A stretch of DNA of 57,197 nt, the filler included, from Dugesia japonica (Eukaryota): the NCBI GenBank assembly GCA_001938525.1. It is 5 parts of 5 records of this genome, joined end to end, with 100 filler letters (N's around TTAATTAATTAA, not from the genome) between each part and the next. Parts side by side here need not be neighbours in the genome. Positions count along the whole stretch, not along the records: positions 10,052 to 24,557 come from MQRL01613272.1; 4 more parts are not named here. The stretch is one strand, 5' to 3'. Positions 4,201 to 54,846 of this stretch are shown here, piece after piece; position 1 is the first letter of the stretch, and the number at the start of each line of letters is the position of its first letter. The translations under genes and the position numbers were made by a program. The notes beneath the pieces are model-generated. The model saw nothing but the letters and a program-made list of their open reading frames with translations, was not told where the DNA came from and ran no database searches.

Positions 4201-7200
4201 TGAGTTTTGGCGAGGCCCACGTGTCCATCCATTCTCGATCTCATTTAACTGATCCCGTACAATCCTGATTACTCTAGTTGCATTTTCATGAGATGGCTGA
4301 GGCTTAGGGTATATGGGCTCAATAAACTTTTTCCATCTCCCATGCTGCTTTATCAATGGCACTATTTTGTTCTGCATTAGATCCACTATCGGTAATTTGC
4401 TGAGGATGAAGTTTTTTGACGGCTTGCTTCTAACAATTGATAAATGTGTTTGGTTAATCAAATGGGCTATGGATACTACTATCCTTCCTTTCGTTGGCGG
4501 ATCTTGTAATAACTCATACATTACTCCTTCTAAAGTTATCTCTTGTGCCATGACTCGTACCTTTAGTGGCAGGGAATTTCTTAATGGCTGCTTCGATTTC
4601 CTTAGCCTGTGGTCTGAGACCATTTGATAGTTGAAATTTCCCAATCCATATTTTTAGCTCTGTATACAACATTAGCAATAATTGCCGTATGACCACTTTG
4701 GTTGGCATGTCATCATCGTCGAATTTTCGTGGAATTTCTCTTGTGATACCGTTGCTAATCGCTTAGTTTGATGGTTTATTGATGTTGCTAATCGTTTTTA
4801 TTTTAATGCTTCCTTCTCCTCCGGATTTCCTGGGGGTTTTGTTCTCGGTCTGCCTCTATTGCGAGGTTCAGTNATTGTTTCTGCATCCACTNTGGTGCGC
4901 GTTGGGTTTGGTGGCGCTTCTTCCTCTTCTGTCTCTATAGGATTTTCCATTTCTAAATGGTGATTTGTATCTATTAAGTCGTCCATGACTGAAGATGGCA
5001 ATTCTTTTGCTATTCTACTTAATATTTGCGATAATGGTTGTTCTTCTAATGCATCTTCTTCGTCTAAATGTACTTTGCTAGGATCGTATTTCTTGCTTCA
5101 AGTTGGCTCTTTGGCTTTTAATTCCTCACTTTTTCTAGTTGGAGGTGAGTATTTTGTGATTTGTAACTCATTCTCGTCTTCTGTTAACTCGTCTGCTGAT
5201 GAAGATCCGAATATTTCACGTTACAATCTTGGCTTGTTTTAGGGGTTTCTTTTGGTTCTTGAGACGTTTCAATACTTCTTGATTGATCTGTGGTAGGTCT
5301 CAATATTTGGCTAGACCCTAGTTGTTTTTGGTGCTTATAGGCTTTCAACATACTCGATCACTCCCCCATTATTGGTCTTGTTTTGTCTGCTGCCTTGTAA
5401 GGGTCTCCTAATTCTGGAAAAATCCATAACGTATTGGGTTTAACTAAATTTATTTTCATTAGTCCAATTGGGGTGGTATCTCCCACTATTCCGTCTTCAT
5501 CCAGGAGTTTATAAGGTGGCTTAAATGGTAACTTGTCTCGTAAGTGCTTTATCGTGTTATTTACTGGTATCTTAATTGTGATTTTGTCCCCCTGCGGATT
5601 GATTATTCGGAATTTGACCTCTAATGGAGTGGTTTGTCCAATCTCGGCTTTCCATTATTTAACCAGGATTTTATTAAACTGAATTGGATCCCATATGTGT
5701 GACACTTTGACAGCCATGATTAATCGTCGCTGTTTTCTAAGATCATCTACCACCAGATCTTGTTGTAAGACTATATTCGATCGACGTATGATTTCTGGTT
5801 TTAATAACTTATCGCCTACTAGCAATTCGAATAATTTTGGTAAATTGTCTTCCGGCTTTTCATCTTTGAATGGGGTGTTGGTCAAAGCCACTACCATTTT
5901 CACTCGTTGTTTACTTAGTTCTTTTTTAGAGAGCTTGGCTCTTGCGAATACTAATGGGTGTATCTCTTCTACATAATTTTCCACTACTTCTCTGGCTTCC
6001 TGCTTCCATTTATTAATGTCAATATTTCTTCAGCATACTTCTGTCTAATCATGAGCCATTGATTCTCAATTTCCTCCGGTATTTTTAGCCCATCGTATAT
6101 GTTATATATATGTTATATTAATTATCTTATTATATTATTATTATATTAACGTATATATTATATTAATTATATGCATTATCATCTAATAAATCTCTCGAGG
6201 TAACTTCTCCTTCTCTATCTGTACTCAGTTAATCATTTCCTACACTTTACGCTACTACTTCTCTTGCCGGCATTTGCCGCATCTTTATCATGTTGCATTT
6301 ACCCTCTCTTCTCTCTAATTGTTGTTTGAGAAAATCGTTACGCGTCATCAATAACTGCTTCCTTTCCTCCTTTGTTAGTTTGTCTTTCTTTCCTAATACT
6401 GTGGAAAGTATCTTTATTTTAATAGGTTTTACTTCTTGTTTATATAGATATTCCATCTCTCTCATGATTTCCGATGCCGATCTTCCGGTTTTTGTTATCC
6501 ATACGTCATAGTCGATACCCGGGTGTTTATCCAATATTACAATTTCAATTTCTTCTCTTGGTTTTACCCCAAATCGTATAGATGTCTTTTTCTGGCATTA
6601 AAATCTACTATAGCACTTGGAGTACACACGTAATTATCAGTTATGCATGGATAGCCTGCTTGATTAAGTGCCGATTCCAGATCTTCTACCATTAATCCCG
6701 TGAGTGTCAGTTTCATGTTTCCATCTGGATTATATACCCATACTTGGAAATCTGATAATCCCTGGTTGGATATTACCCAATCATAATGCACTGGTAACCA
6801 TTCTGTCTAATCGCTTTCAAAATTAGTGACCAGTTTTATAACTTCTAACAACTCTACTAATCGATTGGTCAACTTAAAGTATACATTCCTCTTTATTGTA
6901 TCATGGAGTTTCTGAGTGGCTACAAGTATCTCAACAATTCGAGCTAAGGATAATCGGGATGCTTTATTTTGTTCCGAGTCGGGATAGTCAATTACTTTCA
7001 CCTTCTCAAATCGTTTTCGTAAGTAGTTTTGAGCCTTGGTGGGAACTATTTCTTTTATAAATGTTTCTTCGAGATTATGATATAACTCGTCTGTTTCTAT
7101 TTCTTGAATTGTAATTTGTGGCCTGAACACCAATCCCCAATTTATCAATTTGATTACTGTAGTTTCATGGGGTCGTGTCCCGTAATAAATTAAATTCCTA

Positions 7201-7613
7201 TCATCTGGAAGAATATTGATTCCTATATTACCTTTTTGCCATCTGTGTCTATTCCATTTTCCATTCCATTGTTGCTGATCGGTAAATGTTGGTAATTCGA
7301 GAAATGGGTTTACCGTCATACCTTTGATACTGTTTACTTCGCTCCATTTTATTTCGTTAAGTGCTTCTTTCAAGTGTCGTACTGTCAATCCCTTTAGTGG
7401 TAGTTTTAATCATTTCGGAATGACCTCTGGGTTATTATGCCATATATATTGAATTTCGAATTCATAATCTTCTATATGTTCGTAATCTTCTAACTTAGTT
7501 TCTCTATAAAGCTCGGCGATGTAATCCAATATTGTTTTCTGCCAGTTAGCTTTTACTTTTACGTGTACTTGTGGGTGCTGGTATAATTGAAGTAACTGAT
7601 TCATCACTCGTCT
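4201..7613 (-). pseudogene. Accessory polyprotein region between gag and env with about three ubiquitin-like domains and an AT-hook
   Basis: ORFs 7614..8057, 7410..7607, 6807..7388 and 6564..6791 share one frame separated only by single stops. Ubl-like segments at ~7110-7460, ~6530-6750 and ~5410-5625. RGRPR at ~4850. Confidence 0.6.
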
Positions 7614-9341
7614 TTATCCGGTGGTTGTCGTTGATGCTTCTATTGTCCTATAGATGATTTCGTTGGTCCACTCGAATTCTGGTGATGTAATCAGTATTCG
7701 TTTCCGAGTGTCTTCCATTTCGATAACCTCCGTTGTTTCATCATGTTGGTTATAAATTTGTCTATATGTTCTGACCATATTACATTGATTCTTGTGTGGT
7801 TCATTTAGCAAGTTTCTTTTTGCTAGTCTTTCCTGCTGTACTTGCAAGTCTTGGTTTTGCCACTTTAGCCAATCATTTTCCTGTTGAACTTTATGGTACA
7901 CGTTGTTGAAAGTACTTTGAAGCACTCCGTTGACTTGTCCCTTGTTTTGGTTTACTCGTTGCCTTAATCTCTCATTTTCCTGCATTAGATTATCCAAATT
8001 TGTAATCTGGTTTCGATTATAATTTGTTTGGATTTCGTTTGGACATTCTTTTGCCATATGCCCTCTCCTGTTACACTTATAACAGCATGTTTCTACATTG
8101 AGGTTGGTTCTCTTGCAGTAAGTACAGAATCGATTGTTGTTATTATTATTGCCTCTACTTCTTCAATCTCGGGCAATATGCCCCCGTCTTCCACAGGAAT
8201 CGCATTGTATATCTCTATTATTTTGGCAGTTATTTCGTGGTGCATTAAATCCTCCACCATTTCCTCGGGGGTAGTTAGGTCTATCATTCCTGTTATTCCG
8301 TTCTTGCCCTAGGGTCAGGGTTTTCATCATGGATTGTGTGTTAGGTATCAAATCCGATATCCGCGGTGTAGTTTCCTCTGTCTGTCCTTTTACTTTGAAT
8401 ATCCGTTCTGATGGTCTATCTGCTACAATTCGCAATGTGTCCAGAGCGTCCTGTAGAGTCACTGGCTTACTCAATTTTACCATTAGTTTGGCGTTCTCGT
8501 CGCGTAATTCATTTAAGAATATAGCTAACACTTAACTGTCTTCCAGTTTATCTCCTGAGGCTAATTTGCAGTGCCTTTTGAGTTCCATCATATAAGCTTG
8601 TGGGGTTTCCCCCCGCTGTTGTTTTTGCTTCCTCGTCCCAGCCACAGGTTTTGGCATACATTTCGTAATTTTGGATAAATTCATCCAACTTTTCTGGTTT
8701 TCCGCTAAAATATTCGCCATCGAATTTTATTTTCCACTCCGGTTGATGGTTTTCAGTTTTGGTTGTCATATTGAACTCGATTTTCGGATTTTTGTTTATT
8801 GTTGAGGGTGTCTCACTTCCTAAGTCTCCTGGTTTTATTAACAATGAGTCGATGTTTTCCTGATTATAAGTTGTTAGTTTGATGATGTCTGATTCCTCTA
8901 ATGTATCGCTTATTCTACTTGATCGGTTACTAACTACTGGGGTTTTACTGGAGGTTGTTTTCGGGTTAGTTTTGTTTTCTTTATAACTTGGACTACGGTT
9001 TGAACTGATGGTTTCTAATGTTTTGGTTCTGGATAAAGAGGTTGATTTGTCGTCTTCTGGTTTCTTGAGCAAAAAGTAAAGAAAAAATAAAGTGACGATT
9101 GTTTGGTTTTCTTTGATGACCTGTGTCGTGTAAGTTGGTTTTCCTTTAGAATTGAGCCTGGAGTAGATATTCCGGATGTATTAGACCTTGTAAAAGGTTT
9201 TCTATTTTCTGAGTCTGAATCTATTTTGTCCGAGTCCAGCTTGTTGGTTGCCTTTTGTTTTTCGGTTTTGGCTTTGTAATACTTGTATTTTAACTCTCTA
9301 GAATAAAAATTTACTTCTAATTGTCTTTGCTTAGGAGGCAA
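7614..9341 (-). pseudogene. gag: Retroelement gag (capsid-like region plus CCHC zinc knuckles)
   Basis: FSGKPEKLDEFIQNYEMYAKTCGWDEEAK; QRGETPQAYMMELKRHCKLA; CDSCGRRGHIARD; CYKCNRRGHMAKEC. Confidence 0.85.
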
Positions 9342-10051: not shown

Positions 10052-11317
10052 CAGCAAATCATGTAAGATTAAAATTATGCACAGTAAATATAGTTTCACT
10101 ACACAATGTACTCAACCGGTTGCATGAATAATGTGAATATTATTCACATTTTCAATTTATATGGAATTTGGTTGTAGCTTCATTAAGTAACAATATGAAG
10201 AGCTCCTTAATTCAACAAATAAAAGAAAGACGCACAAATTTACTCAATGTCATAAAAAATCTTCATAAAGGAGATCAAGCCCAAAAATNATCTGAGGCTA
10301 GATATTATATCTGGTCGCTAACTAAACTAGCTTTGGTAAATTTAATTGTGTATTTTATCCTTTGGATGTTATCCTTCCCAGCTGAAACTACATTCTTACC
10401 ATTTTCAAGTGATGATGATGATGAAGAAACCATAATGTGTGAAGACTAACCTTTGACCTTGACATTACAGGAGCAGCTAAGCATGGCCATAAATAATGAG
10501 ATAAAAATAACAACAGCGCCAAAATAAATCGAAACGCTAACGATTACACAAAAATTGAAAAGAAATTTCTATATTTGAGGAAGACTGCACACGTAGTACC
10601 AACTTGAACTTGATAAACGATTTTCTTTTAACTGTTTTCTCATCTAGTAAAGAAGCTGAACGTGCTTCCTCTTCTTCGGAAATGCTATATATATTAAAAA
10701 TTCGATCGTTTTTGAATGACGGAACTTTAAGCAATTTGTGTTTTACAGGCTTATAAATCAATAAATATTTTTTATGTTTTTTCATTGTTTTTTAATTTCA
10801 AATGAATTGATTTTATATATTACTTGTTGTTTTCAATACCAGTATTCAAATTCTGGTCCGGTATTGGATGCTCAACTGATAATATTGATAAATAAAATAG
10901 TGACAATTTATTGNAAATATCCTGACAATATTTTCTAGAAATTATAATAAAATTTTATTCATTAAGTGTTTTGAAAATTTCATGAAATTCTGATTATTTG
11001 CCAGACAATTTTCAATTTTTGTTTCTACACAAGATGGTAAATAAATACCGTCATATCGAAAAATAAATAAAATATAATTAATTTGTAATACTATTTATAT
11101 TTTTACAATAAATTTAAACAAGAAATATTTGAAAATATCTATAAAAAAGAGAAATTTATTTCATTTATNNNNNNNNNNNNNNNNNNNNNNNNNNNNNNNN
11201 NNNNNNNNNNNNNNNNNNAGAGAAATTTATTTCATTTATCGTTGCAAAATTGAAATAATTTTTACTATAAATATTAATATTAATTGGAAATTATATTGAA
11301 ATTCTCTTTATTTATAG

Positions 11318-11545
11318 AAATTTCAAAGTTACTGTTACTAGACAAGATAAAATAACCATTGATATGGATGTCAGTTCAGAGAATACTATCCAAAGTTTAA
11401 AAGAGAATATCCAAAGATCATGGAATAAACCAATAGAACAACAAACTTTAATGTTCAGAGGTGAAAAACTGGAAAATAATAAAAAGTTATCTGATTATGG
11501 AATTGTTGAGAAATGTTTAATTTCTTTATTTCCAAAAGTATCAAA
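11318..11545 (+). CDS. Host exon encoding one ubiquitin-like domain
   Basis: tttatAG acceptor and GTgag donor; 228 bp, phase 2-2; NFKVTVTRQDKITIDMDVSSENTIQSLKENIQRSWNKPIEQQTLMFRGEKLENNKKLSDYGIVEKCLISLFPKVS. Confidence 0.85.
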
Positions 11546-12500
11546 GTGAGATTTATTTCTATTTATATATTTTTATTTATTTATTTTGATTTANNNNNNN
11601 NNNNNNNNNNNNNNNNNNNNNNNNNNNNNNNNNNNNNNNNNNNTATTTCCAAAAGTATCAAAGTGAGATTTATTTCTATTTATATATTTTTATTTATTTA
11701 TTTTGATTTATTTATTTGATTTATTTATTTAACTTTATTTATTTNNNNNNNNNNNNNNNNNNNNNNNNNNNNNNNNNNNNNNNNNNNNNNNNNNNNNNNN
11801 NNNNNNNNNNNNNNNNNNNNNNNNNNNNNNNNNNNNNNNNNNNNNNNNNNNNNNNNNNNNNNNNNNNNNNNNNNNNNNNNNNNNNNNNNNNNNNNNNNNN
11901 NNNNNNNNNNNNNNNNNNNNNNNNNNNNNNNNNNNNNNNNNNNNNNNNNNNNNNTCTATTTATATATTTTTATTTATTTATTTTTATTTATTTATTTAAC
12001 TTTATTTGTTTTCAGTTTATTTATTATTATTTTTGGAAAACGAATTAAGATACGTTAACAAAATATATAAAATCTATTGAGTGCTTTCTAACCTCCGGTC
12101 GTGGTGAGCGGATCAATAAATGATATATTTTAATTTCTCACTCACTTGTGTGATATTTTCGAAGTAATTCACTGAAAATCTCAAATATCTTTCAATGATT
12201 TTCATTATGGTTGATGCGAGATAACTTTGCCGATAATTTTCGTAACAAATAGTGAGTTTGTGGTGTCTCCTTTACTGATTCCGTATTTTTTTTCTTGTAT
12301 AGTGTGCTCCAATGATCCTCGTAATGTTTTCAATTTCAAGAGCTCTATTTGGGCTATTATCTACTTATTATTTGATTAGTATCTAACCTTTCTTATTCGA
12401 CTGTGAATTTGTAAGCTTTTTATCAATAGTTAAAGTTGTTGTTTGAATCACAGTTGAGATTGGACCTTGTAAATATGATATTGTCCAAAAAAGGATAGTT

Positions 12501-13340: not shown

Positions 13341-13494
13341 GGTCAATTTCCACAAAAGATTTATTCACAAAACTAAACTATATTCAACACTATTTGTTCA
13401 TTCAAACAAATCAAAATTCTACGTTTTAATTGGTGATCATTTTTTTTAAATATTATAATTTAAACGAAACTTTAACTTTATTATTAAATCGTCA

Positions 13495-13981
13495 TTTAAA
13501 ATTTAAAACAAAATAATCATTTGTTATTAAATTTCCATTCAAAATTTCAAACAAAAGTAATCATTTGTTAATTGAATTTCTATTTAAAATTAAAACAAAA
13601 ATAATCATTTGTTAATTGAATTTTCATCCAAAATTAATAACAAAAATAATCATTCGCTATTAAATTTTCATTCAAAATTTCAAACAAAAGTAATCATTTG
13701 TTAATTGAATTTTCATCCAAAATTTAAAACAAAATAATCACTTGTTATTAAATTAATATTTAAAATTTAAAAGAAAAATAATCATTCGCTATTTAATTTC
13801 CATTTAAAGTTTAAAACAAAAATAATCTTTCGTTAATTGAATTTTCATCCAAAATTTAAAACAAAAATAATCATTCACTATTAAATTTTCATATAAAATT
13901 GAAAACGAAAATAATCATTCGCTATTTAATTTCCATTTAAAGTTTAAAACAAAAATAATCTTTCGTTAATTGAATTTTTAT
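13495..13981. repeat. ~39-40 bp minisatellite
   Basis: AAAATAATCATT(T/C)G(T/C)TA..AATTT(T/C)CAT..AAAATTTAAAAC repeated about 12 times. Confidence 0.9.
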
Positions 13982-14195
13982 NNNNNNNNNNNNNNNNNNN
14001 NNNNNNNNNNNNNNNNNNNNNNNNNNNNNNNNNNNNNNNNNNNNNNNNNNNNNNNNNNNNNNNNNNNNNNNNNNNNNNNNNNNNNNNNNNNNNNNNNNNN
14101 NNNNNNNNNNNNNNNNNNNNAGTATACTAGATTACTGACCTTTAAAAAAATTGACCTTGACGGGGGTTGATCCAGTGCGCTACTATCTATCTACT

Positions 14196-14420
14196 GTGGA
14201 TAATTACCTTACTTTATAGGAAAACAGTATGAATCCGGTTGGTTGCGAACAATTAGTCGATTCGCGTTTCCTATTCTTAAATGTATTGGTTCATTTGGTA
14301 TGAAAACTGCACAGGATATACTAGCTAACGATTNAAAATTATTACCACCATTAAAATCTAATTGAATGAACTTGGTAATGTTTTATCTTCTTTGTCTAGT
14401 TGAGTAACCAGTATGATACC
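14196..14420 (+). pseudogene. Polinton small core/membrane-active-like protein upstream of the capsid gene
   Basis: G*LPYFIGKQYESGWLRTISRFAFPILKCIGSFGMKTAQDIL resembles the small amphipathic protein often found before the Polinton MCP. Confidence 0.55.
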
Positions 14421-14559
14421 TAAATAGCAAACATGTTGCCATCAAGAATAGAAAATAAGATACATGCTGAAATAAGTAATATGATAAAAATTTTTAAAAA
14501 AACTAATAATAAACGCAAGAAATGAAGCTCCTCACTCATAAACAAATGAATTAGAGGAC

Positions 14560-15020
14560 ATGGAACAATATTCGAAAAACGATTTGTGGAAAAACTAAAT
14601 TGTGCATTTTTGATCGGCCATCTCCTCAAACTGTTACTGAATATTTGAAGATGTGTTTCCAATGAATTCGATATCTGAATCGCGAAATGATGTAGATTTT
14701 CATCAATGAATCGCAAACTGAATAACTGGATTTGAATGACACCTTGTTATATGTACAAGTGAAAGTAGTTGATAAAGTTGGAAAGGATTTGATTGAAGCT
14801 TCTGATGTAATAACTAACAACTATAGGTTTCATTCTCTATTTAGTGATGTCTTTCTGTCATTTAACCATTTTAAAATAGATGGTGGAAATAGAACTTATA
14901 TTCAAAAATCCTTGATTGAAACTATATTAAATTACAATGTAGACAGTAAGAATTATTTTCTTACAGCAATGGGATATGGAGTAGAAGCAGATAGAAAAAA
15001 ATCGATTAAATGATCTAAAC
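14560..15020 (+). pseudogene. Polinton major capsid protein (PY/hexon-like), 5' part
   Basis: CGKTKLCIFDRPSPQT...LDLNDTLLYVQVKVV...FHSLFSDVFLSFN...IETILNYNVDSKNYFLTA. Confidence 0.85.
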
Positions 15021-17819
15021 GGTTAGTTACTGATAAACTTTCTGAAAAGTGAATTAAAGTCAACAAAATTTTATTTATGAAATTTCAAATCTTCAAATCT
15101 TAAAAAACTATTTTTGAAAGGTTGAATATTTAAACAAAGTTGTTTAAATATTTTTTAAAAAAATTCTTGAAATCTTTTTCAGCATTTTGTTCTTAAAACT
15201 TTAAATTTTACATCCCCCTCGATTAAAAGAATTTTTTAAACTTTTCTACGTTCCTTTCTAGCACTTTTCCATTTGTATTTCGTAAACGATTTCTTCTCTC
15301 ACATCCTTTCTTTCTTTCTTCCAGTCGCATGTCATTGGTGTATTCCACTGCGAATTACATTTTCTTATAATATTAGAGTTTGCTAAATTTTTTATGGCCG
15401 TATCTATTTTTTCTTCTAGAGTCATGGGTTGTCTCCAAGGCTTCGTATTTATTGGATTACCCTTTGTCACTATTATGTGTTCTGCCACCCTTGTACATCC
15501 GAAATCCCAGTTATCTGCTATGAATACTCGACGTTGTTCTATTACCTTTTCTAGTTTCTCGTTTCGTTGTTTCATCAAAATTCTTAAAGTTCTCTGTTCT
15601 CTTTCAACATCCTCAATTTTCCAACCAAACCTTGCGTCTATTTTGCAGATCCACTGTTCATTCTCATGCTCCTTTGTTTCTTTCTTTAAACGGTATCAAA
15701 ACTGGCGTTGCATGTCTATTCCTCCAACAAGATTCGGACTCATTTCTTTCACTACGGTAAATTGCACTGTTTCCGATCTCCACTTCTACATATATCTTGC
15801 CCGCAAGGTTCATTCTACTATTATTTGCACATTTTAACACGTCATCAGTTTCTCTCAGCTTGACATTTGTCAGACTTCTAAATATATTTCGGCTCATCAC
15901 GTTTATCTTTGCACATGTGTTCAAAAAGGCAGTCTTTATATCTTCCTTGAATTCTTACTTCTACACTGGGCCTACCTTGCATTCTATCTTAATTTATTTG
16001 TACTTGTTTATTCTCTTCTAATATCATTATTTCTCGTTTCTTTCATTATCTTGATATCTGTATTATACATATCTCTGTAATGTCTCTTTTAAAACGCATA
16101 AACTTTTCTGTCTACTCTTTCCTCTTTACTTTTATCTTTTATACTATTAATTAAACTACTTTTACTATACATATGTATATAGCGATCTGGATTGTTTTTA
16201 GTTCATTGCTCTAATCAACTCGACTTTGGATGGAGCTTGTCTAATTGGGGTGTCTTCTCTATAGCTGTTGGTCTCCTCATCGTAATAATAAATATTATCT
16301 CCTCTCTTTATGTACTCCTCATCTTCCTCTACCATTGCGTTTACATATCTATTGCCAGCTTTTTTTCCTGAATCCATTATTGGCTGATGTCCTCCCACTT
16401 TGTTTTTGGAATCTGTTATTATCTTCATATTTTCTGTTTGTTTCATCTCTTTGTCTGTATAGTGCTGCTTCGTTTCTTTGTTCGTTATTCTGCTGTCTTC
16501 TCTCATTAGTCCATTTACCTCTTTTCTCCAAATTAGTATAACATTGTTCTGTATGATGTCCATTTTTTCCACTTGAACATCTAATTTTGTCACAATTTCT
16601 TCTTATATGATTCTCTGATCCGCTTGCGTAACACATTCTTTTCTTTTCGGGACAACTTCTGTTGATATGACCTATCTTTTGACATAAACAACATGTAATT
16701 TCTTTTTTAGCTTCACGTTGAGTTCGGTTAACTCCTGAGAAACGTTTTTTTGCAATGCCTCTTTTTACTGCATTGGTATAACTCTCTATCGTATTTATAT
16801 TGTCCGTTTCTTTTAGGTCATCCTTTAGTTCATCATTTGTTTTTATTATTTCAAATATCTCTTTCGAGTTGGCTAATTTGCCTCCTTTAATTTTTATTTG
16901 CATCCTTTAATCGCGGCAACTATTATATATTAATTCTTTTGTCATCTCTTCTTTTTCTAGTTTGTGTGCAAAGATTTTATCGANCAGTGTTAAAATATTT
17001 TTCTTGTACACATAAACGTGTTCATCCGTTCTCTTGTGTTTTAAAGCTTCCTCCAAATCTTGTATGAGAGTAGTCTTTTTGTGGAACGCTTTCCTCAGTC
17101 GGTCCTCAAAATCTAATAATTCATCTTGGCATTCATATGCTTCTCTTAANNNNNNNNNNNNNNNNNNNNNNNNNNNNNNNNNNNNNNNNNNNNNNNNNNA
17201 TCGCGGCAACTATTATATATTAATTCTTTTGTCATCTCTTCTTTTTCTAGTTTGTGTGCAAAGATTTTATCGACCAGTGTTAAAATATTTTTCTTGTACA
17301 CATAAACGTGTTCATCCGTTCTCTTGTGTTTTAAAGCTTCCTCCAAATCTTGTATGAGAGTAGTCTTTTTGTGGAACGCTTTCCTCAGTCGGTCCTCAAA
17401 ATCTAATAATTCATCTTGGCATTCATATGCTTCTCTTAATTTTCGATCAATTAAGCCAATCACCAAGAGGTTTTTATCCTTTTTCTTTACACCAATACAT
17501 TCGAAGTATTTAGTGCAAGCATTGATAAACTGTTCAATATCGTCACCATGCCGGTAAATTCCAGGGTGTAGGGCTTCTCGAATGAGGTCCATTGAAGCGT
17601 TTGTCGCCATGTTAGTTACTGATCAACTTTCTGAATAGTCCATTAAAGTCAACAAAATTTTATTTATGAAATTTCAACTCTTTAAATCTTCAAAACTATT
17701 TTTGAAAGGCTGAATATTTAAACAAAGTTGTTTAAATATTTTTTAAAAAATTCTTGAAATATTTTTTAGCATTTTCTTCTTCAAACTTTAAATTGCAATT
17801 TCAATTTTTAATCCTTACA
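15021..17819 (-). mobile_element. Internally deleted Gypsy LTR retrotransposon inserted in the Polinton MCP
   Basis: LTRs 17610-17819 (TG..CA on minus) and 15021-15212; PBS-like TGGCGAC at 17603-17609; PPT ~15213-15228; 5-bp TSD TAAAC/TAATC; gag with CCHC (16349..17610), protease-like FLNTCAKINVM and the start of RT (SQWNTP). Confidence 0.9.
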
Positions 17820-17824
17820 TAATC

Positions 17825-18228
17825 CATTGGCTCTATGTGTTTCCTTGCAGCTGGACTTTATGAATCAACCAAAATATCTAATTCATGGTGTCAATGTACA
17901 CATTAGATTGAAGAGAGAAAACCTGGAATCGGCAACTGATAAACCCTAATATCAATTATTGAATGCAAAATTAATGGTTAAACTTGTGCGTGTGGAACCT
18001 TAAGTATTGGTTGGTCATTAAATAGGAGTAACTAAACAAAATACTATTTATCTAATACTAATCAAGAAGCTTGTTGGGTTTGCAATTGGTAAAAATTGTG
18101 TCTTGTTTATATGGAAAAAATCTTTGGAGATCGTCGTTTGCCTAGCTTTCTGTTGGTAACATTTCAAAATGAAGATCAATATAAATATGATTATAAAAAC
18201 TCTANTTCAACATTTCAACATTTCGCCA
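17825..18228 (+). pseudogene. Polinton major capsid protein, continuation after the Gypsy insertion (3' truncated)
   Basis: LALCVSLQLDFMNQPKYLIHGVNVHIRLKR...AKLMVKLVRVEP...IFGDRRLPSFLLVTF...FQHF. The frame rejoins the 5' part across the TSD. Confidence 0.85.
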
Positions 18229-18260
18229 TATTATAAAATTAATAATTATCTATTTTGTTT

Positions 18261-18859
18261 TTACACAGTAATATCATTAGAGTTGAAAATATCAGTTCTC
18301 ACTCTAAGTTCATAAGGACATTGTTGTGTAAAGTCAAGTAAATGATATTCATGCGGGATTACTGTAGCATTATTGAACGATTCAATAAAAAATTGTCTGA
18401 TATTAGGATAGACCATCCTTGCTAAAAATTCAAGAACTGTTTGATCTCTCGGACTTTTAAGTATAACATTTAAATTATGTGTCTGATAGTTTCCTTCTTT
18501 ATGGAATAGATTTTGAGTAATGAATGTCACAGTCACATCACAATGCCTCGATATCTTTGTAAATAGTTTGTTAAATTCCTTTCTTTATTAGCTTCCTGGT
18601 ATAGATCATCAACAAAAATCTCATTACTTGGTGTCAATTTCTTGCTCCAGTTTTTGTCAAATCTCTTTACAATTTTCATTTTTATATCGCAAAATACTGA
18701 TTGAATCATCCGATGCTCCTCATCTGCACCTCTATGCCAATATATTTTATTGAATTTCGATTTGAATAAGTTTGATTTCAATCATTTACACACAAACAAG
18801 GCTTTTCCACTACCACTTGGTCCAACAATTTGATTTACAGCTTCATTTTTTAATTTCAT
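18261..18859 (-). pseudogene. Polinton A32-like DNA packaging ATPase
   Basis: Walker A IVGPSGSGK; Walker B EIFVDDL; FITQNLF; KSPRD; LLDFTQQCPYELRVRTDIF. Confidence 0.9.
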
Positions 18860-18900
18860 TATAATCTATACTTGTTTAAACGGATCAATAGAATTAATAT

Positions 18901-18920
18901 TCTTTATACAGGTATAAATA
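18901..18920. promoter_or_regulatory. Back-to-back TATA boxes between the divergent ATPase and TBP-like genes
   Basis: TATAAATA (+, 18913-18920) and TATAAAGA (-, 18901-18908), about 30 and 40 bp upstream of the respective ATGs. AT-rich background limits confidence. Confidence 0.45.
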
Positions 18921-18949
18921 CCATTTTAAAAATGAATTATTCATAAATA

Positions 18950-19330
18950 ATGATTGCAAATATTAATTACAGAGGAAACGTTGATCAAGAAGTGACCAAA
19001 AAATGAGATTTTCATGTGGAATACCTGCTCAATTAGTAGAGAAAACAGACAAGTATGCCCTTGTTTTCTTTCAATCAGGAAGTTGTAGATTCATGGGTCG
19101 TAAGAAACAAATAGGACCAAAGGATTTAAAGTATAATATCCAGAATATTCAATTACAATCACTTACAGTTGTCTATGATTTGAGAACTATGATTATAAAC
19201 CGGAAATATTCCCAGGATTAAGAATTTCAAAATATGTTCCAATATGTGTTAATTTATTTTCAAGTGGAAAGATTGAATTAGTTGGAATAAAAACATTTTA
19301 TTATCAATCAATTGTTAATGAAATATTAAA
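18950..19330 (+). pseudogene. TATA-box-binding-protein-like gene within the Polinton (two frameshifts, probable small deletion)
   Basis: MIANINYRG...PAQLVEKTDKYALVFFQSGSCRFMG...IQNIQLQSLTVVYDL / YKPEIFPGLRISKYVPICVNLFSSGKIELVGIK versus TBP repeat 2 YEPELFPGL...LLIFVSGKVVLTGAK. Confidence 0.85.
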
Positions 19331-19359
19331 ANNNNNNNNNNAATTAATTAATAATTTAA

Positions 19360-19694
19360 ATACTATTGTTGTACACTTTTCAAAAATAGATGATGTAATC
19401 TTGTCAAAAAAACAGAAGGAAATTTTGAAAGAAATATAACTATTTAATCAAGATGTTGTTTTCGAAGATGATGATGAATACATGATATCTTTCATGAAGT
19501 GGCTTGGAAGAACTATTATTCCAAAAATTATTTCAGAGACTAAACGTTGTTTATCGTTGAATTATGAAGATTATCTCAATAAATGTAAAGTTGATGTTGC
19601 CAATAATCTGGCAAATGTATTCACTCTTGATCCATTTATCGATGTTATGGAGAAAATATCAAACAATGAAATTATACTTTATCGTATTAAATAA
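19360..19694 (+). pseudogene. Polinton orphan ORF
   Basis: ORF 19482..19694 plus upstream in-frame sequence; AATAAA overlapping the stop. Confidence 0.4.
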
Positions 19695-19802: not shown

Positions 19803-20230
19803 TCATTCAATCTTTTGAGTTGATTTAACTTACCATATTGGTTTTACTATTTCTTCCCATTTCTTGTAACCAATAATTTCGACTAATCTTTGATTTACTT
19901 TCTTGAACATTATCTTTCTTGGATTTAATAAATGATGCATCTTCAATTTTCATGCGTTCATTGATTTTTACAAATAGTTCATTAAGAGTCTTTTGATCAT
20001 TCTCACTGATTTCAGATATGTATAAATCGTAAACACAAGGTTTTACTTGTATAGAATCCTAAATATAAAAGTATTAATAAAGTTATTAGCAAATCAAATA
20101 TTATTTGAAAAGTATAATTGATTGTTCTCTTAAAGAAAACCATTTCGTGTATCAAGTAATTTCTTGGTTTTTCACACTCAAATACTAGTGTAGAAGAATT
20201 TTCCTTGGTAAGAATTTTAATCAACTTCAT
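19803..20230 (-). pseudogene. Polinton orphan ORF (frameshifted)
   Basis: ORF 20012..20230 continues in other frames (ISENDQKTLNELFVKINE; LVEIIGYKKWEEIVKPIW). TATATAAA lies ~27 bp upstream of the ATG. Confidence 0.4.
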
Positions 20231-21299
20231 TTTGAAATAATGAATTAAAGATTCAGTTTATATAGGTTTTAGTACGGGTTTGTATTAATTAAATACATTG
20301 ATACGTTTAAACAATTGATTCTAGAACATTTTTATTGAAATTATCTAAAAATTAAATTAGTTTAAATAAAATTTAATTAATTTTAATTATAATGGTTAAA
20401 TTTATTTAATATGAATTATTATAGTTAAATTTACTGATTTTTCAATATAACTATTTATGTATAAGTTTTGGTGATTTTTAAGCTTGTTATTCGTACTCAC
20501 CGTAAAATTGTCTGTCGAATAGTATCAATTTCGATAAATTCTNNNNNNNNNNNNNNNNNNNNNNNNNNNNNNNNNNNNNNNNNNNNNNNGGCTGTACATA
20601 TTCGTTAGGAAGCATTTTTACCGAGATGATATTTTAACTTTGTACAGTCAATTTTTCATCTTGAATAAAATAATACCAAATTTGAGTCCATAGCTGTTAT
20701 CTGCGCACAGAATTCTGAGCACTAAACTCTAAATTTTTAAATTTTTTCACCACCAAACTTCATTTATTTCATCAAGTATTAACTTTGGCGATTTTAGGTT
20801 AACATATTTGGAATCAGCAAAAAGTACTCTATCGAATATACATTTTCTTGACCTATTTTAAGAAGAAAATATTTTTTCGAACAAATCCTGTGCAAAATAC
20901 TGGGAAAACCAAATATTATCGGGGTAAAATTACACAGAAGTCATTACAATTTTTTAAATTATATAGAAGTCACCAAAAATTTTATTGAAGTCACCGAAAA
21001 TTTTCAAAAATTGCATAGAAGTCTATGAAAATATAACAAAGTACTGATGTGTGTTTGTTCATTTTTATAAATTATGATCAAATATTCCATGAGAAACATA
21101 AATGCATTTGCAAATTTTTCATAATCTTTTTAAAAGAAATTTAATCTATTTAAAATTTGTAAGTAAATAATTAATTCATTTTTTACATTTTAAAGTGCGA
21201 ATATCTCTACTTATGCACCAAACTGCTTTGAAAACATGACAGATGCATTTTTTATATCATTACCATTCTAATGATATCAAGTTTGATGCCTATTAATTA

Positions 21300-22905
21300 A
21301 GAAATGGTACCAAAACTCCATTTTTAAAATATAAAGATATATTTGAGAGAGGTTCAAAATCTGCGAAACTTTATGGACTTCCTAAAGTTCATAAGAAAGA
21401 TGTTCCTATGCGTCCTGTTTTATCCTTGATAAAAATAGCTCAATATAAGGTTGCCAAACTGTTGAATAAGCTTATTAAGCCTTTACACAGATCTGAATTT
21501 GAGTGCAAGAATAGTTTTGAATTTTCATCTTTAATTTCTCATTATCCATTGGCTAGTAATGATTGCTTTACGGTCTCATTTGGTGTTGCAAATTTATTAA
21601 CTAATATTCCATTAAAAGAGACAATACATTTGTGTTGTGAAATATGGAGTGATTTTAATCCTAATAAATCTTCTTTAGATGATATAGCGTTTCATGATCT
21701 TTTAACCTTTGCAACATCAAATTTTCAATTTCTTTTTAATGATGAATGGTATAGACAGATTGATGGTGTGGTGATGGGATCCACATTAGCTCCAACATTA
21801 GCTTCTATTTTCTTGTCTAAATTAAAGAGTAAGATTAATGATTATTCTTCTGTTAAACCTCTAGTTTATAAACGTTATGTCGATGAAATTTTTCTTAATT
21901 TTGAAAATCACTCTCAAGTACATCTGTTTTTGGAGTATATGAATAACTTGCATCCAAATATAAGTTTTTCGGTTGAAGAAGAGATCAATTCAACTATTAC
22001 ATTTCTTGATTTGCTTATTGAAAGAAAGAATACTTCATTTGAAACAGAGATATATAGAAAGAAAACTGATACCGAGTTTTTTACTAATTCTGGCAGTTTT
22101 TATGACATAAAATATAAAAGTAATATGATTAAAGGACTAATTCATCGTTCTTGGTCTCTCTTNTCTACTTTAATCAAAGCAGACAAGAGTCTTAAAACAT
22201 TAATTGACTTACTTCATAATAATAGGTATCCTAAATTGTTTACGGACAAATTAGTTTATGAAACTTTAATTAAACTTAATAGTGACTTGTTTCGTGTTGA
22301 TATATCTGAAGTTGTAAAAACAGATCCTAAAATTGTTTTATCTTTACCTTATTCTGAGGGCTTTAAAAACTTTCGATTGAAAATGCTCTTAAGAATATTT
22401 TAAATATAAAGTTGGTATCTCAATCTCATAAGGTTATAAATATGTTTAATAATAAATCTATAACTCCTTTAGGCTTGTGCTCTAATCTGGCATATCAATT
22501 TAAATGTAAAGGATGTAACGTCACATACATTGTAGAGACTTTCCGTCATCTCTGCACCAGAGTTCAAGAGTATAGTCGAAATAGTAGTAATAGTAATATT
22601 GTTGAGCATTGGAGAAAATGTAGAAAATCAATATGGTGTTCTGATTTTAAAATCCTGTACAGTGGATTTAATAATTATTGGGAGAGAGTGATGTGAGAAG
22701 CTTTGTTGATAAGGGTATTAAATCCTAAAATTAATGTTCAGTTGACAGATTCAACATCGCTCTTAAAATTATTTTATTGATATTTTTCATTAAGATTGCA
22801 CAATTGAAATTCTATAATCATTTAAACTTTGTAAAAAGTTTGTTTTAATATTCTTTAATTGCCTGATGACGACGGCTATTCCATCGAAATTGATCGCAAA
22901 TAAAT
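21300..22905 (+). mobile_element. Penelope-like retroelement (RT plus GIY-YIG endonuclease), 5' truncated
   Basis: LYGLPKVHK..VPMRPV; QIDGVVMGSTLAPTLA; KRYVDE; ITFLDLLI; YRKKTDT; AYQFKCKGCNVTYIVET.RHLCTRVQE; terminal hammerhead. Confidence 0.95.
22859..22900 (+). ncRNA. Type I hammerhead ribozyme in the Penelope terminal repeat
   Basis: TTGC-CTGATGA-C-GACGG ctatt CCATC-GAAA-TTGA-TC-GCAA. Confidence 0.8.
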
Positions 22906-24007
22906 ATTTTTAAAAAATTTAAAAAATTTTTTTTCCTGTGCCGTTTTCTTGTATTGCATACATTTTTCGATACCAATCATTTAGACAATGTATAGGTAGT
23001 TTGTAATTGCCTAGTTAACAGTATCAAATTTAAGTCTTGGTGATAAAATCTTGAGGTTGGGCACGGTTTTTAAACTTAAAACCTTTAAATATTTAATTAC
23101 TCGTCACCTGAGATAGCAGTTATGTTCATCAAGGTTTTACGAGTCTAACGATAAAAAATCTTTTATTAGTTAATGTATATACTTGTTTTAATAGAGCTTT
23201 TTAAAATTGATGAATTTAGATGTTTCAGTGCGCCAATATCTACCTACTAGAGTGTTGCTCAACTTTCCCACGAAGGAAGCATTTTTCATCATAAGTACTT
23301 TATGAAATGTATAGATTGTTTTCAAGTATCATCTTAGTGATGGTGGTTTCAACTCATAAAATTGTAACCGCCCACCATAGAGCCAAATATNNNNNNNNNN
23401 NNNNNNNNNNNNNNNNNNNNNNNNNNNNNNNNNNNCTTTATAAGTGAGATACATTCTACTTTTAATTCACTATCACATCGTATAAAAATCTTGATGAGTG
23501 TAATGGAAAAGTTTTGATGGAGACGGATTTTTTAAAATTTTAAATCTTTAATAAACTTTTACCCTTACATTTGACTAATATTAAAATACCTTCACTGTAT
23601 TCATCATTTAATTGCGCATCCAACAATATCAAGTTTGACCAGAAAACACGATTTTAAATGGACTTTGATCTATAAAATTGATATGTACCTTTAGCCGTCA
23701 TGTTGAATGGGAAGGAGTCATTAGACAAATATGCTCGAGCTATCTCGAATAGGGTGGTTCGAGTTTCCAACTTTATGCACATCTGATAATATTTTGTTGG
23801 TATGATTGATAATTGTATCTTAAGTTCCAAAAAATTAATTTTTAGACTGGTTGTAAAATCTGGAAAATCAATATTAACTATTTAAAATTTTTAAATATTT
23901 CTTATTAATTTGTAACAAAGTAAACCATTGATTTTTGATTTATTAAATAATTGATACGTACATGTATATCATTTTTAGTTAAATATTTTATGTTTAAATT
24001 TATTTAG

Positions 24008-24235
24008 CAATGAAATACAAGTTATTGTTTATGTCGAGTCTGGTCGAAATANNNNNNNNNNNNNNNNNNNNNNNNNNNNNNNNNNGAATTTAAAATCTAA
24101 AATTCAACAAAAGATAAATATTGAAAATACCTACCTAACATTAGTCTATCAAGGTGAATTGTTGGATGATGACAAGACAATTAATCATTACGAAATTGAA
24201 ACATGTTCAGTTATTATTGCTCATCGCACCATAAG
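24008..24235 (+). CDS. Second host ubiquitin-like exon (probably same gene as 11318-11545)
   Basis: tttAG acceptor and AG|GT donor; 228 bp including an N-run; phase 2-2; NEIQVIVYVESGRN...NLKSKIQQKINIENTYLTLVYQGELLDDDKTINHYEIETCSVIIAHRTI. Confidence 0.8.
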
Positions 24236-26109
24236 GTTTCATTTAATATTTTGTATTAATTTTATAAATTTTTATTATTGGGTATTCAGTGTAGATTTTN
24301 ACTGTCTGATTTTTGTCTATCCATTTTATATGGAATATAATTTCAAAATAATATATGATAATAATAATAAAATGAAAAGTGCAATATTTTAAAATTTTTA
24401 TTTATAAAACATGTTTTGGATAAATATGTATTCATTATCAGTTACTGTTGTAAATCAAGAAAGAAAACTGTTTATAAACGGGCCAATAAAACCTGTTGCG
24501 CAATCAATTCAATAAGATTAAAATTTATAAGTGAGTATAAATAAATTTAGCTCCTTCNNNNNNNNNNNNNNNNNNNNNNNNNNNNNNNNNNNNNNNNNNN
24601 NTTAATTAATTAANNNNNNNNNNNNNNNNNNNNNNNNNNNNNNNNNNNNNNNNNNNNTTGTATTAAAGTTTTAAAACAAAATGATTGCCAGACTGATAAT
24701 ATTTTTCCGGCTTTGGATAGAGTCACATAGAGCATCAATTAGGCCACAATAGTATCATATCGAAAAGTAACTAATTTTGATTTTATTACGCAATTTGAAA
24801 TACAATTTGAAAGCATCTTTAAATAAATTCATATACAATTGAAATTCTGTTATATAACAAGATGTAATAAATATATACGAATCTGTGATGTCAATTTCAT
24901 CGCTATTCTGTTCTTTTGAAATAAAATAAACTCTGTACTAAAATCAGCTTCATAGCAAGATCATTTTTAGTCCTATGTGTGATTTAATTTTTGAGCCCTT
25001 CATATATGCAACTGAAAAAAATTGTTTACAAATTATGTTTCTTCGATATTCAAACATAGAAAATCAATATTATATATCGATATATTNNNNNNNNNNNNNN
25101 NNNNNNNNNNNNNNNNNNNNNNATTTTGTGCAAAGCTCCATGAGAAATACATTTTGTAACATTATTACTATATATCATTTTAAAAATAATTAAATATTCT
25201 ATTTAATTTATAAAAATAGAAATAATAATATTTTGAATTATTATAAATTATTAAAATATTGAAACCTTAAAATCTTTACCTTTGATGCTTTATTTCACCT
25301 GCATTGTTACGGTAACAGGTGAAATGTTTAATGACAATTAATAATTTTTGATTAATATATTATATTCCATAAATTTTGAAATATTTGTAAAAATATAATT
25401 ACTTTGTTTTCTATTTGTTTACTTTACATGAATGATTGATGTTTGTTTATGTTTATTGTTAATTTCTTTTCTAAATGCACGTAAACAATTTGACATTGTG
25501 ATGTTTTTGAAGAAAATTTAAAAAAAACAATTGATTTATTNNNNNNNNNNNNNTTTATTGATTGTTCTTTTAATTAATAGAAAATATTTTTATTCTTCAT
25601 AAATTCCATTACCCACATAACAAATTTTGTCTCACTCTAATAAGATTTCAATTATTTCTTAATTGCTGTACACACAGTTATTCCGACTCGGCCATTGAAC
25701 ATGAAATTCTCTTTCATTTTAAATAATAATAAACCAGTAAAATTAATTTTTATAAAGAAAATTGTTTTTTAAGTTGCGTTTATAACATTTGTTTGTTTTT
25801 TTTTTCTCAGAAAAATGCTATTTTTTAATTGTCCAATATTTATTAATCTTTGCTTTTATTTCAAAAACTAATATAAATTGAACACTATAATTAAATGACA
25901 AATTGAGTAATTTTTTTTTGTATTTATTTTCTTGCTATCTGATAATTAATTAATTTCGACCACATTCAACTTCATCGCTGTGAAAATTTTTTTTTCAAAT
26001 TTTTTGTTAATTTTGCAATTTCTTTGAAAAAAAAATAAAACAAATTAATGAACATTGAATTCATTAAAAAAATTCNNNNNNNNNNNNNNNNNNNNNNNNN
26101 NNNNNNNNT

Positions 26110-54757: not shown

Positions 54758-54846
54758 AAATAATACCCTCATAAACCATATATTACACGGTTGCTATGTA
54801 AATAATACCCTCATAAACTATATATTACACGGTTGCTATGTAAATA
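54758..54846. repeat. 42-bp tandem duplication
   Basis: AAATAATACCCTCATAAAC(C/T)ATATATTACACGGTTGCTATGT occurs twice. Confidence 0.85.

What the first reader, a model, noticed from the sequence alone, without database searches (positions are those of the whole stretch)
18901..19330. Polinton/adintovirus carrying its own TATA-binding-protein homologue
Seen: an intronless, core-only, two-repeat TBP-like gene head-to-head with the packaging ATPase, with back-to-back TATA boxes between them. Repeat 2 (YKPEIFPGL...NLFSSGKIELVG) is very TBP-like. Repeat 1 keeps the first-strand Asn and the FxSG motif but appears to lack the first intercalating Phe, so about 3 of 4 are retained. Known: TBP homologues occur in NCLDVs but are not part of the canonical Polinton gene set (pPolB, INT, ATPase, PRO, MCP, mCP). 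Inference: a small endogenous DNA virus lineage using a divergent TBP to direct host Pol II to its promoters or to antagonise host TBP.
Basis: partly seen in the sequence, partly recalled or inferred. Interest (0 to 1): 0.85.

Follow-up and report, generated by a model that had tools for sequence, protein, structure and literature searches.

The report
Polinton mini-TBP with late-gene promoter
A virus-like Polinton element here carries a broken copy of a stripped-down TATA-binding-protein gene; intact relatives sit in many such elements, whose capsid and packaging genes share one TATA-like box, so the protein likely switches on the elements' late, particle-building genes.

Summary
Confirmed and extended. 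The gene (18950-19370, +) is a TBP homologue, broken in this copy, inside a partial Polinton with an ATPase and a capsid gene split by a Gypsy-like insert. It is no host retrocopy. Intact relatives of about 150 aa are many, under purifying selection, linked to Polinton core genes (22 of 28 loci of 3 kb or more) and outside the canonical TBP clade. An intact relative folds as a TBP saddle (Z 12.8). It keeps three of four phenylalanines and both TFIIB-binding glutamates, lacks the regulator-binding helix, and has fixed changes on its DNA face. These elements show two promoter classes: canonical TATA plus initiator before many TBP genes, and YATAAAC about 31 nt before virion-type genes (51 of 69; 4.7% of random windows; 0 of 7 in a lineage with a more ordinary TBP). 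Best reading: an early-made viral TBP reads this box and recruits host TFIIB/Pol II to late genes, as herpesvirus TBP mimics do. Binding is untested and no TBP-less Polinton control was obtained. Not found described in the papers searched, beyond one figure label. This scan noted the same family and box on other genomes.

The parts
18950..19370 (+). Mini-TBP gene, broken in this copy (frameshift near 19000, out-of-frame gap near 19194, N gap 19332-19341); one of the two stirrup glutamates is also lost here
18913..18944 (+). Class I (canonical) promoter of the TBP gene: TATAAATA at 18913-18920 and an initiator-like TCAT 28-31 nt later; function inferred
   Evidence: sequence
18902..18908 (-). 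TATA-like box facing the ATPase. It is a variant of the class II box in this copy; related copies laid on the window match class II here
   Evidence: (table 3)
18249..18883 (-). A32/FtsK-like packaging ATPase, broken by stops and a frameshift
14537..14543 (+). Class II box (CATAAAC) about 35 nt before the capsid start inferred from relatives
14555..15019 (+). Major capsid protein gene, 5' part, broken. No Pfam hit; named from its Polinton position and a recalled motif
17821..18230 (+). Major capsid protein gene, middle part, broken; ends where the ATPase 3' end begins
15022..17794 (-). Gypsy-like gag/pol remnant between 186-nt direct repeats (92% alike), inserted in the capsid gene; class named from recalled gag/RT-like motifs
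14171..14377 (+). Small conserved gene that precedes the capsid gene in related elements (cluster C22; putative core protein)
19390..19694 (+). Unknown ORF after the TBP gene, with one in-frame stop; no relative in the fetched loci, no clear Pfam or Atlas name
19828..20058 (-). Homologue of cluster C2, a small gene beside the TBP gene in 18 related loci
20015..20264 (-). Unknown ORF behind a second class I promoter (TATA, initiator-like TCATT, ATG)

Best explanation
This is a broken copy of a TBP-family gene carried by many Polinton-type elements, and the intact protein likely acts as their late-gene switch. SHOWN: the family is Polinton-linked and under purifying selection, is predicted with high confidence to fold as a two-lobed TBP saddle, keeps both C-lobe glutamates, and has lost the first-lobe basic patch. 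SHOWN: a YATAAAC box lies at a fixed spacing before most virion-type genes but almost never before the TBP gene. INFERRED step 1: host TBP transcribes the viral TBP gene early (from a canonical TATA-initiator promoter in this lineage). INFERRED step 2: the viral TBP binds YATAAACR; its altered first lobe would read the C at TATA position 7 that ordinary TBP disfavours, and its altered second lobe would accept C at position 1. INFERRED step 3: it recruits host TFIIB and Pol II through the kept glutamates and escapes TFIID/Mot1-type control, turning on capsid, packaging and accessory genes, many from promoters buried in the upstream coding sequence. This copy itself makes no whole protein.
For: Family and linkage: 43 relatives among 71 candidates. 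Profile search of 1.84 billion representatives gave 63 at E<=1e-30. Of 60 family loci, 32 hold a Polinton core gene, as do 22 of the 28 loci of 3 kb or more. Selection: dN/dS below 1 in 35 of 35 pairs, median 0.205. Fold: pLDDT 93; 38 TBP entries at Z 10.6-12.8, next fold 7.0. Residues in 197 relatives, yeast numbering: E186 92% and E188 97% (88% and 98% in the 109 found without a pattern); F116, F190, F207 97-98%; F99 absent 96%; V122 to Arg 97%; T124 to Met 99%; L205 to Asn 98%; I194 to Arg 80%. I194, V203 and L205 are the positions of the altered-specificity mutant TBPm3 (PMC1636458). Promoter: ATAAAC before 51 of 69 virion-type genes against 20 of 106 others and 4.7% of 2193 random windows; top de novo 6-mer; 1 of 69 on the wrong strand. 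At 22-40 nt before the ATG, NATAAA is followed by C in 42 of 45 cases before virion-type genes and 1 of 15 before TBP genes. Spacing is fixed to the next ATG (median 31 nt, quartiles 29-35.5, n 49), not to the previous stop (-78 to +332, n 39). Synonymous codons spell the box in gene tails (23 of 42 against 19 of 198 Ile-Asn pairs). Present in 21 of 21 loci of groups A/B, 0 of 4 loci of group C, whose TBP keeps F99 and lacks the Arg. No TFIIB family hit among the locus ORFs scanned. Precedent: herpesvirus ORF24 and its TATT late box (PMC12529657).
Against: No binding, start-site or timing data; 'late' is inferred from gene type. No Polinton lacking the gene was obtained, so the box is not shown to depend on it. 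Group C is only 4 short loci. Ordinary TBP can use a C at position 7 weakly: 27% activity for TATAAACG in plant cells (PMC10005294) and a solved C(-25) complex (1qn3). The classes are not clean: at 22-40 nt the box precedes integrase in 0 of 4, protease 1 of 5, C22 1 of 4 and capsid 3 of 7 (7 of 7 within 80 nt), while non-virion clusters C18 (5 of 5), C4 (6 of 9) and C10 (3 of 7) have it. Only 17 of 34 TBP genes have a canonical TATA within 80 nt, all in group A. I chose the gene classes after seeing the upstream sequences, and related loci are not independent, so the p-values overstate the case. RNA reads over the TBP gene come from other copies and run the same way over the oppositely oriented ATPase, so they may be read-through.
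Confidence: 0.7

Rival explanations
1. The box is a weak TATA read by host TBP once the element has replicated, and the viral protein works as a decoy: it soaks up host TFIIB or blocks host TATA promoters to shut off host genes.
For: Ordinary TBP binds and weakly uses C at position 7. The TFIIB-binding glutamates are kept while one intercalating Phe is lost, as a TFIIB sink would need.
Against: A decoy does not explain near-invariant polar changes on the DNA face (Arg 97%, Asn 98%), the strict C in 42 of 45 boxes, or the absence of the box in the lineage with a more ordinary TBP.
Confidence: 0.13
2. The viral TBP reads the box but recruits polymerase through an element-encoded or non-TFIIB partner, as herpesvirus and poxvirus TBP-like factors do.
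For: Large-virus TBPs tend to pair with their own TFIIB-like proteins (PMC7221094; PMC12917281). Several neighbours (C2, C7, C10, C21, the ORF at 19390-19694) have no known family.
Against: Both TFIIB-signature glutamates are kept, unlike in those viruses. The small neighbours differ between groups A and B, and none hit a TFIIB family in Pfam, a test that misses remote homologues.
Confidence: 0.09
3. The box is a promoter for a co-infecting large DNA virus, as in virophages, and the TBP-like gene has a separate job.
For: Some insect polinton-like viruses travel with entomopoxviruses (PMC11296320, listing), and poxvirus initiators contain TAAA.
Against: The box sits about 31 nt before the ATG, a TATA-like spacing, and is the same in two deep lineages. 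That paper holds no promoter analysis.
Confidence: 0.04
4. The gene is a host TBP/TRF retrocopy or passenger with no role for the element, and the box is a 3'-end signal or an AT-rich accident.
For: This copy is broken and the window is very AT-rich. No TRF2/TLF or host TBP was in the tree.
Against: Wide linkage, purifying selection, a separate clade. The box tracks the next start, not the previous stop, and is at 1 of 6 convergent gene ends; shuffles give a mean of 5.3 and a maximum of 14 against 51.
Confidence: 0.04

Closest known systems
Beta/gammaherpesvirus TBP mimics (KSHV ORF24, EBV BcRF1, CMV UL87) and their TATT late box
   Same: A nuclear DNA virus encodes a TBP-fold protein, keeps host-like promoters on early genes and a variant TATA box on virion genes (PMC12529657, abstract and introduction). 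The model matches BcRF1 weakly (E 3.8e-3).
   Different: ORF24 is a large protein in a six-factor complex that binds Pol II directly, and a section heading of that paper says its model is incompatible with TFIIB binding. The Polinton protein is about 150-170 aa, keeps the TFIIB glutamates, and its candidate box is YATAAAC.
Cellular TBP of eukaryotes and archaea (Pfam PF00352)
   Same: Two-lobed saddle, 147 residues aligned at 2.9 A; N69, F116, F190, F207, E186, E188 kept.
   Different: F99 and its stirrup absent; first-lobe helix H2 absent in group A; basic patch lost; Arg, Met, Asn and Ser/Thr at DNA-face positions; only 22-26% identity; separate clade.
TBP homologues of Nucleocytoviricota and poxvirus VITF-3/VETF
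   Same: Viral TBP fold that has lost the host regulator patch (PMC7221094 passages); structural matches.
   Different: Those viruses encode their own RNA polymerase, and many their own TFIIB with the glutamate signature diverged. No RNA polymerase or TFIIB hit was seen in these loci, and the glutamates are kept.
Polintons/Mavericks/adintoviruses (Starrett et al. 2021, PMC8502044)
   Same: Related loci hold pPolB, integrase, ATPase, adenain-like protease, capsid, penton-like and PLA2-like genes.
   Different: The paper has only a figure-legend label 'TBP' for a map of MELD viruses and no mention of promoters. Its unnamed conserved genes beside FtsK (Adintoc2, Adintoc3) may be this gene; untested.

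Membership tests
TBP family (PF00352) | Profile match above the curated cut-off | tested here: met
   Window piece 23.2 bits against 22.9; P0001 45.7 bits, two stretches
TBP family (PF00352) | Two-lobed saddle fold | tested here: met
   Predicted model of P0001, pLDDT 93; Z 12.8, rmsd 2.9, 147 aligned, over both lobes
TBP family (PF00352) | Binds and bends a TATA-like box | not testable with these tools
   Inferred from residues and promoter motif only
Canonical eukaryotic TBP | Four intercalating phenylalanines | tested here: not met
   F99 absent in 96% of 197 relatives
Canonical eukaryotic TBP | First-lobe basic patch on helix H2 for TFIIA, TAF1, Mot1, Brf | tested here: not met
   K133/K138/R141/K145 not kept; linker 24 residues or fewer in 138 of 197 against 32 in all 21 canonical rows; no helix in the model
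Canonical eukaryotic TBP | C-lobe glutamates for TFIIB (C.L3.2, C.L3.4 of PMC7221094) | tested here: met
   92% and 97% of 197; 88% and 98% of 109 found with no pattern. The window copy has lost the first
Canonical eukaryotic TBP | Falls inside the eukaryotic TBP clade | tested here: not met
   Own clade, support 97; union with four animal TBPs rejected, p-AU 0.0037
TRF2/TLF paralogues | Groups with animal TRF2 | not tested
   No TRF2 sequence was fetched
Polinton/adintovirus (this copy) | Capsid and packaging ATPase genes | tested here: met
   Profiles from related loci hit both, E down to 1e-34
Polinton/adintovirus (this copy) | pPolB, integrase, penton and terminal inverted repeats in the same element | tested here: inconclusive
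   None found in the window; the copy is partial and no genome is held. L003, L040 and L041 hold pPolB, integrase, penton-like gene, ATPase, capsid and TBP together
Herpesvirus-type late TBP mimic (works like) | Variant TATA box before virion genes, canonical promoter on the early gene | tested here: met
   the canonical promoter is seen in group A only
Herpesvirus-type late TBP mimic (works like) | The viral protein is required for late transcription | not testable with these tools
   Needs binding and reporter assays
Herpesvirus-type late TBP mimic (member) | Large protein with Pol II-binding N-terminal domain and C-terminal extension | tested here: not met
   Relatives are mostly 145-200 aa and the TBP fold spans the whole model
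Nucleocytoviricota TBP/TFIIB pair | TFIIB-like partner in the same genome | tested here: inconclusive
   No TFIIB family among 66 and 68 ORFs scanned; Pfam misses remote homologues and the loci are incomplete

The most novel reading that the evidence does not exclude
Polintons run their own early-to-late transcription switch with one minimal protein: a TBP of about 150 residues, re-tuned to read YATAAACR, freed from host regulators and plugged into host TFIIB. It would be the smallest natural orthogonal TBP-promoter pair, a so-far unnamed conserved Polinton gene, and evidence that these elements make particles without a helper virus.
Probability: 0.6. Interest if true: 0.88.

Novelty: new variant of a known kind. 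Interest (0 to 1): 0.78.

Why it matters
Polintons are widespread and are thought to lie near the root of many eukaryotic DNA viruses, yet how they switch on their capsid genes, and whether they need a helper virus, is open (background from my own knowledge and the abstracts listed). A conserved viral TBP with a matching box makes that testable with one small protein and a short oligonucleotide. It also gives a sequence mark for late genes and a cue for finding active elements. It would show a third route to a viral TBP, beside herpesviruses and large DNA viruses: keep the host TFIIB contact, drop the regulator surface, change the DNA code. Such a pair could serve as an orthogonal promoter tool.

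Tried and rejected
No host genome is held, so copies, introns and host TBP paralogues could not be searched. A control set of Polintons without the gene was sought in viral contigs with ATPase and capsid alignments: 3 distant loci and 0 loci; not usable. The viral-contig scan with the TBP alignment gave 4 loci, all other kinds of TBP. The middle piece of the window gene alone hit nothing in Pfam or solved structures. A single-sequence fold of a group B protein failed (pLDDT 35), so helix H2 in group B rests on linker length only. The Atlas search on the ORF at 19440-19691 gave unrelated-looking clusters with low shared-feature counts: no name. No RNA holder was listed for this stretch. RNA run X21 laid 49 reads, 46 of them under 90% alike: uninformative. 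X22 is ambiguous, and no pile-up of read starts was seen. A polyadenylation-signal reading of the box was rejected. My first guess that the ATPase box lay at about 18872-18880 (notebook) was dropped for the box at 18902-18908. dN/dS of ATPase, integrase and capsid could not be compared (1, 0 and 0 usable pairs). One origin for groups A, B and C is neither shown nor rejected (p-AU 0.26). No complex prediction was run: no host TFIIB sequence was at hand and a stand-in would pass by likeness. Patikoglou et al. 1999 was not held, so the exact base contacts of V122 and L114 are recalled. Peptide motifs of the family were not found in the readable part of the adintovirus supplement; it was cut and its slides were unreadable.

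Full report
1. What is in the window. The window is AT-rich eukaryotic DNA with many repeats and assembly gaps. No whole genome is held and the organism is given only as a code; that it is an animal is my inference from the element type. At 18950-19370 (+) lies a TBP-like gene. Its last open piece hits Pfam PF00352 above cut-off, and all 35 solved-structure matches are TBP chains. A natural intact relative, P0001 (153 aa), matches in three pieces at 80-83% identity. The copy has a frameshift near 19000, an out-of-frame gap near 19194 lacking 12 residues, and an N gap at 19332-19341. Beside it are a broken packaging ATPase (18249-18883, -), a broken capsid gene split by a Gypsy-like insert (14555-15019 and 17821-18230, +), a small C22 gene and a C2 homologue. 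No pPolB, Polinton integrase, penton or terminal repeat was found, so this is a partial, dead element. Two DNA runs lay 5158 and 5183 contig pieces on the region at 85% likeness or more: the family is present in very many copies.

2. The gene belongs to a large Polinton family. P0001 found 43 proteins among 71 candidates. A profile of these found 3908 proteins at E<=0.001, cellular TBPs included, and 63 at E<=1e-30. A metagenome scan gave 66 loci from 214 pattern matches. I treated 60 as family loci and set aside 6 that look like other TBPs. Of the 60, 32 hold at least one Polinton core gene, as do 22 of the 28 of 3 kb or more; 9 hold three or more. L003, L040 and L041 hold pPolB, integrase, penton-like gene, ATPase, capsid and the TBP gene together. 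The capsid and penton names rest on position and recalled motifs, since Pfam had no hit. All 35 usable pairs have dN/dS below 1, median 0.205 (pairs overlap). In a quick tree of 90 rows and 174 columns, groups A (short, this window's type) and B form one clade (support 97), group C another (99), both outside the canonical eukaryotic TBP clade (96) (46 of 197 family rows were used). On 42 rows, joining A+B with four animal TBPs is rejected (p-AU 0.0037); joining A+B with C is not (0.26). Branches are long, and TRF2 and the host's own TBP were absent.

3. Anatomy of the protein. The model of P0001 is confident (pLDDT 93, pTM 0.82) and matches TBP over both lobes: 38 TBP entries at Z 10.6-12.8, the next fold at 7.0. 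The first lobe has a short helix H1 and no helix H2. I mapped 197 relatives of 125 aa or more onto yeast numbering through a named arthropod TBP (the numbers are recalled, their spacing was checked in the script; the family rows are all rows not set aside by eye as cellular or other). Kept: N69 85%, F116 97%, F190 98%, F207 98%, E186 92%, E188 97%. The locus scan imposed these two glutamates, but among the 109 proteins found without a pattern they are still 88% and 98%. Lost: F99 (96% gap) and the basic patch. Replaced: V122 by Arg (97%), T124 by Met (99%), N159 by Ser/Thr, V161 by Thr/Ser, I194 by Arg (80%), V203 mostly by Cys, L205 by Asn (98%). Ravarani et al. 2020 (PMC7221094; passages and one section) assign the two glutamates to TFIIB binding and the first-lobe patch to TFIIA, TAF1, Mot1 and Brf, and report that the viral TBPs they studied have lost both. 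The Polinton protein keeps the first and loses the second. I194, V203 and L205 are the positions that change specificity at TATA base 2 in TBPm3 (PMC1636458, passages). TBP kinks DNA at steps 1/2 and 7/8 (PMC10005294, passages). So the second lobe sits on the upstream half, and the lobe without F99 would face positions 7-8 (inference).

4. Two promoter classes. Reading upstream regions suggested two patterns, which I then counted on de-duplicated 80-nt regions. ATAAAC lies before 51 of 69 virion-type genes (ATPase, capsid, penton, protease, C22, C9/C17, PLA2-like, integrase), 20 of 106 others and 4.7% of 2193 random windows. It is the top de novo 6-mer; the reverse strand has it in 1 of 69; 1000 shuffles give a mean of 5.3 and a maximum of 14. 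The context is YATAAACRW. It ends a median 31 nt before the next ATG (quartiles 29-35.5, n 49) but anywhere from 78 nt before to 332 nt after the previous stop (n 39), and is at 1 of 6 convergent gene ends: a promoter-like, not a 3'-end, pattern. At 22-40 nt, NATAAA is followed by C in 42 of 45 cases before virion-type genes but 1 of 15 before TBP genes. Where the box falls in the tail of the upstream gene, synonymous codons spell it: 23 of 42 against 19 of 198 Ile-Asn pairs, and 23 of 29 against 6 of 65 Tyr/His-Lys-x triplets (not de-duplicated). It occurs in 21 of 21 loci of groups A/B and 0 of 4 of group C, whose TBP keeps F99 (6 of 7) and lacks the Arg. The TBP gene has the box in 1 of 34 cases and a canonical TATA in 17 of 34, all among the 28 of group A. 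Initiator-like TCAYT is in 52 of 106 non-virion and 6 of 69 virion regions. In the window, the TBP-facing box is canonical with an initiator-like motif 30 nt on, the capsid gene has CATAAAC at 14537, and the ATPase-facing box is a variant in this copy while related copies match class II there. Exceptions: integrase 0 of 4, protease 1 of 5, C22 1 of 4 and capsid 3 of 7 at 22-40 nt (some starts may be miscalled; capsid is 7 of 7 within 80 nt), and C4, C10 and C18 often carry the box. The classes were not chosen blind, and the loci are related.

5. Mechanism. Most likely the TBP gene is an early gene, and its product is the late-gene factor: it would bind YATAAACR, recruit host TFIIB and Pol II, and escape the regulators that grip the lost patch (0.70). 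This mirrors KSHV, where early genes have host-like promoters and ORF24 reads a TATT box on late genes (PMC12529657; abstract, outline, introduction). The main rival is that host TBP reads the box weakly and the viral protein is a decoy (0.13): TATAAACG keeps 27% activity in plant cells and a C(-25) complex is solved (1qn3), although TBPm3 selects against C at positions 6-8. Lesser rivals are a viral partner in place of TFIIB (0.09; no TFIIB family among 66 and 68 ORFs scanned), a helper-virus promoter (0.04) and a passenger gene (0.04). Expression is not shown. In RNA run X22, 636 reads were laid, 2 at 99% or more, so they come from other copies. Over the TBP gene about two in three run as sense RNA would in a stranded library, but the same direction dominates over the oppositely oriented ATPase.

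6. What is in print. Searches for polinton with 'TATA-binding protein', 'TBP', TATA and promoter, TBP-like terms, late promoter, maverick with TBP terms, and TATAAAC found no description of this family or box. Starrett et al. [quoted passage not shown] Their supplement was cut and partly unreadable, and the unnamed genes Adintoc2/3 beside FtsK could be this gene. Term searches in four further papers (10.64898/2026.06.19.733378, PMC11131425, PMC11296320, PMC11161782) found no TBP or TATA. PMC12917281 and PMC8643651 were read as passages. Subscription journals, Repbase and preprint supplements were not searched. Three earlier notes of this scan on other genomes report the same kind of gene, one with the same box; I read them, they are unchecked, and they are not counted as support.

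7. Verdict. Observation confirmed, first reading supported and sharpened. It is a member of the TBP family, not of canonical TBP, TRF-type status untested, and not a member of the herpesvirus mimics though it probably works like them. New variant of a known kind; interest 0.78.

Noticed in passing
window 126-467 (-): Adenain-like protease fragment of a separate Polinton piece, next to a long retrotransposon-like remnant at about 1500-9300.
   Followed up: partly
window 54531-54782 (-): Homologue of cluster C21, a small gene that lies between TBP and ATPase in L001 and L036: a third Polinton scrap.
   Followed up: partly
L039 3449-3523; L041 5518-5589: tRNA-Ile(GAT) between the TBP and ATPase genes, and a tRNA-Cys, inside Polinton loci (2 of 22 loci scanned).
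   Followed up: no
L053-L056, L060, L063-L065: A third Polinton TBP lineage (group C) with F99, N159 and a full linker kept but the same Asn and Arg in the second lobe; the TBP gene abuts or overlaps the ATPase start; no class II box in 7 upstream regions.
   Followed up: partly
clusters C2, C8, C20 and C4 (for example L004 1071-1460, L035 1588-2256, L028 56-646): Unannotated neighbours that look by eye like single-strand-binding folds (C2, C8, C20) and a DEDD-type exonuclease (C4); recalled resemblance, no Pfam hit.
   Followed up: no
group A TBP upstream regions (for example L004, L008, L018, L025, L031): CCAAT-like boxes upstream of the TATA box by eye; enrichment over virion genes was not significant (22 of 106 against 8 of 69, p 0.15).
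   Followed up: partly
L010 3975-4316; L024 1897-3327; L039 8-1216; L038 1665-2168; L040 13315-13914: Cargo genes in these elements: dual-specificity phosphatase, leucine-rich repeat, KilA-N and RING proteins.
   Followed up: no
window 11271-11549 and 23979-24392 (+): Ubiquitin-like host exons (Pfam hit for the first; the second by eye).
   Followed up: no
window 21297-22696 (+), partial copy near 50325-50837: Non-LTR reverse transcriptase remnant (RVT_1) with a second partial copy.
   Followed up: no
window 16910-17149 and 17200-17439; 13439-13970: An exact 240-nt duplication across an N gap, probably an assembly artefact, and a 44-nt tandem array.
   Followed up: no
L068 857-2566, L069 9671-11380: A 570-aa large-virus protein with a TBP domain fused to a SAP domain; a long branch next to the Polinton clade in the tree.
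   Followed up: no
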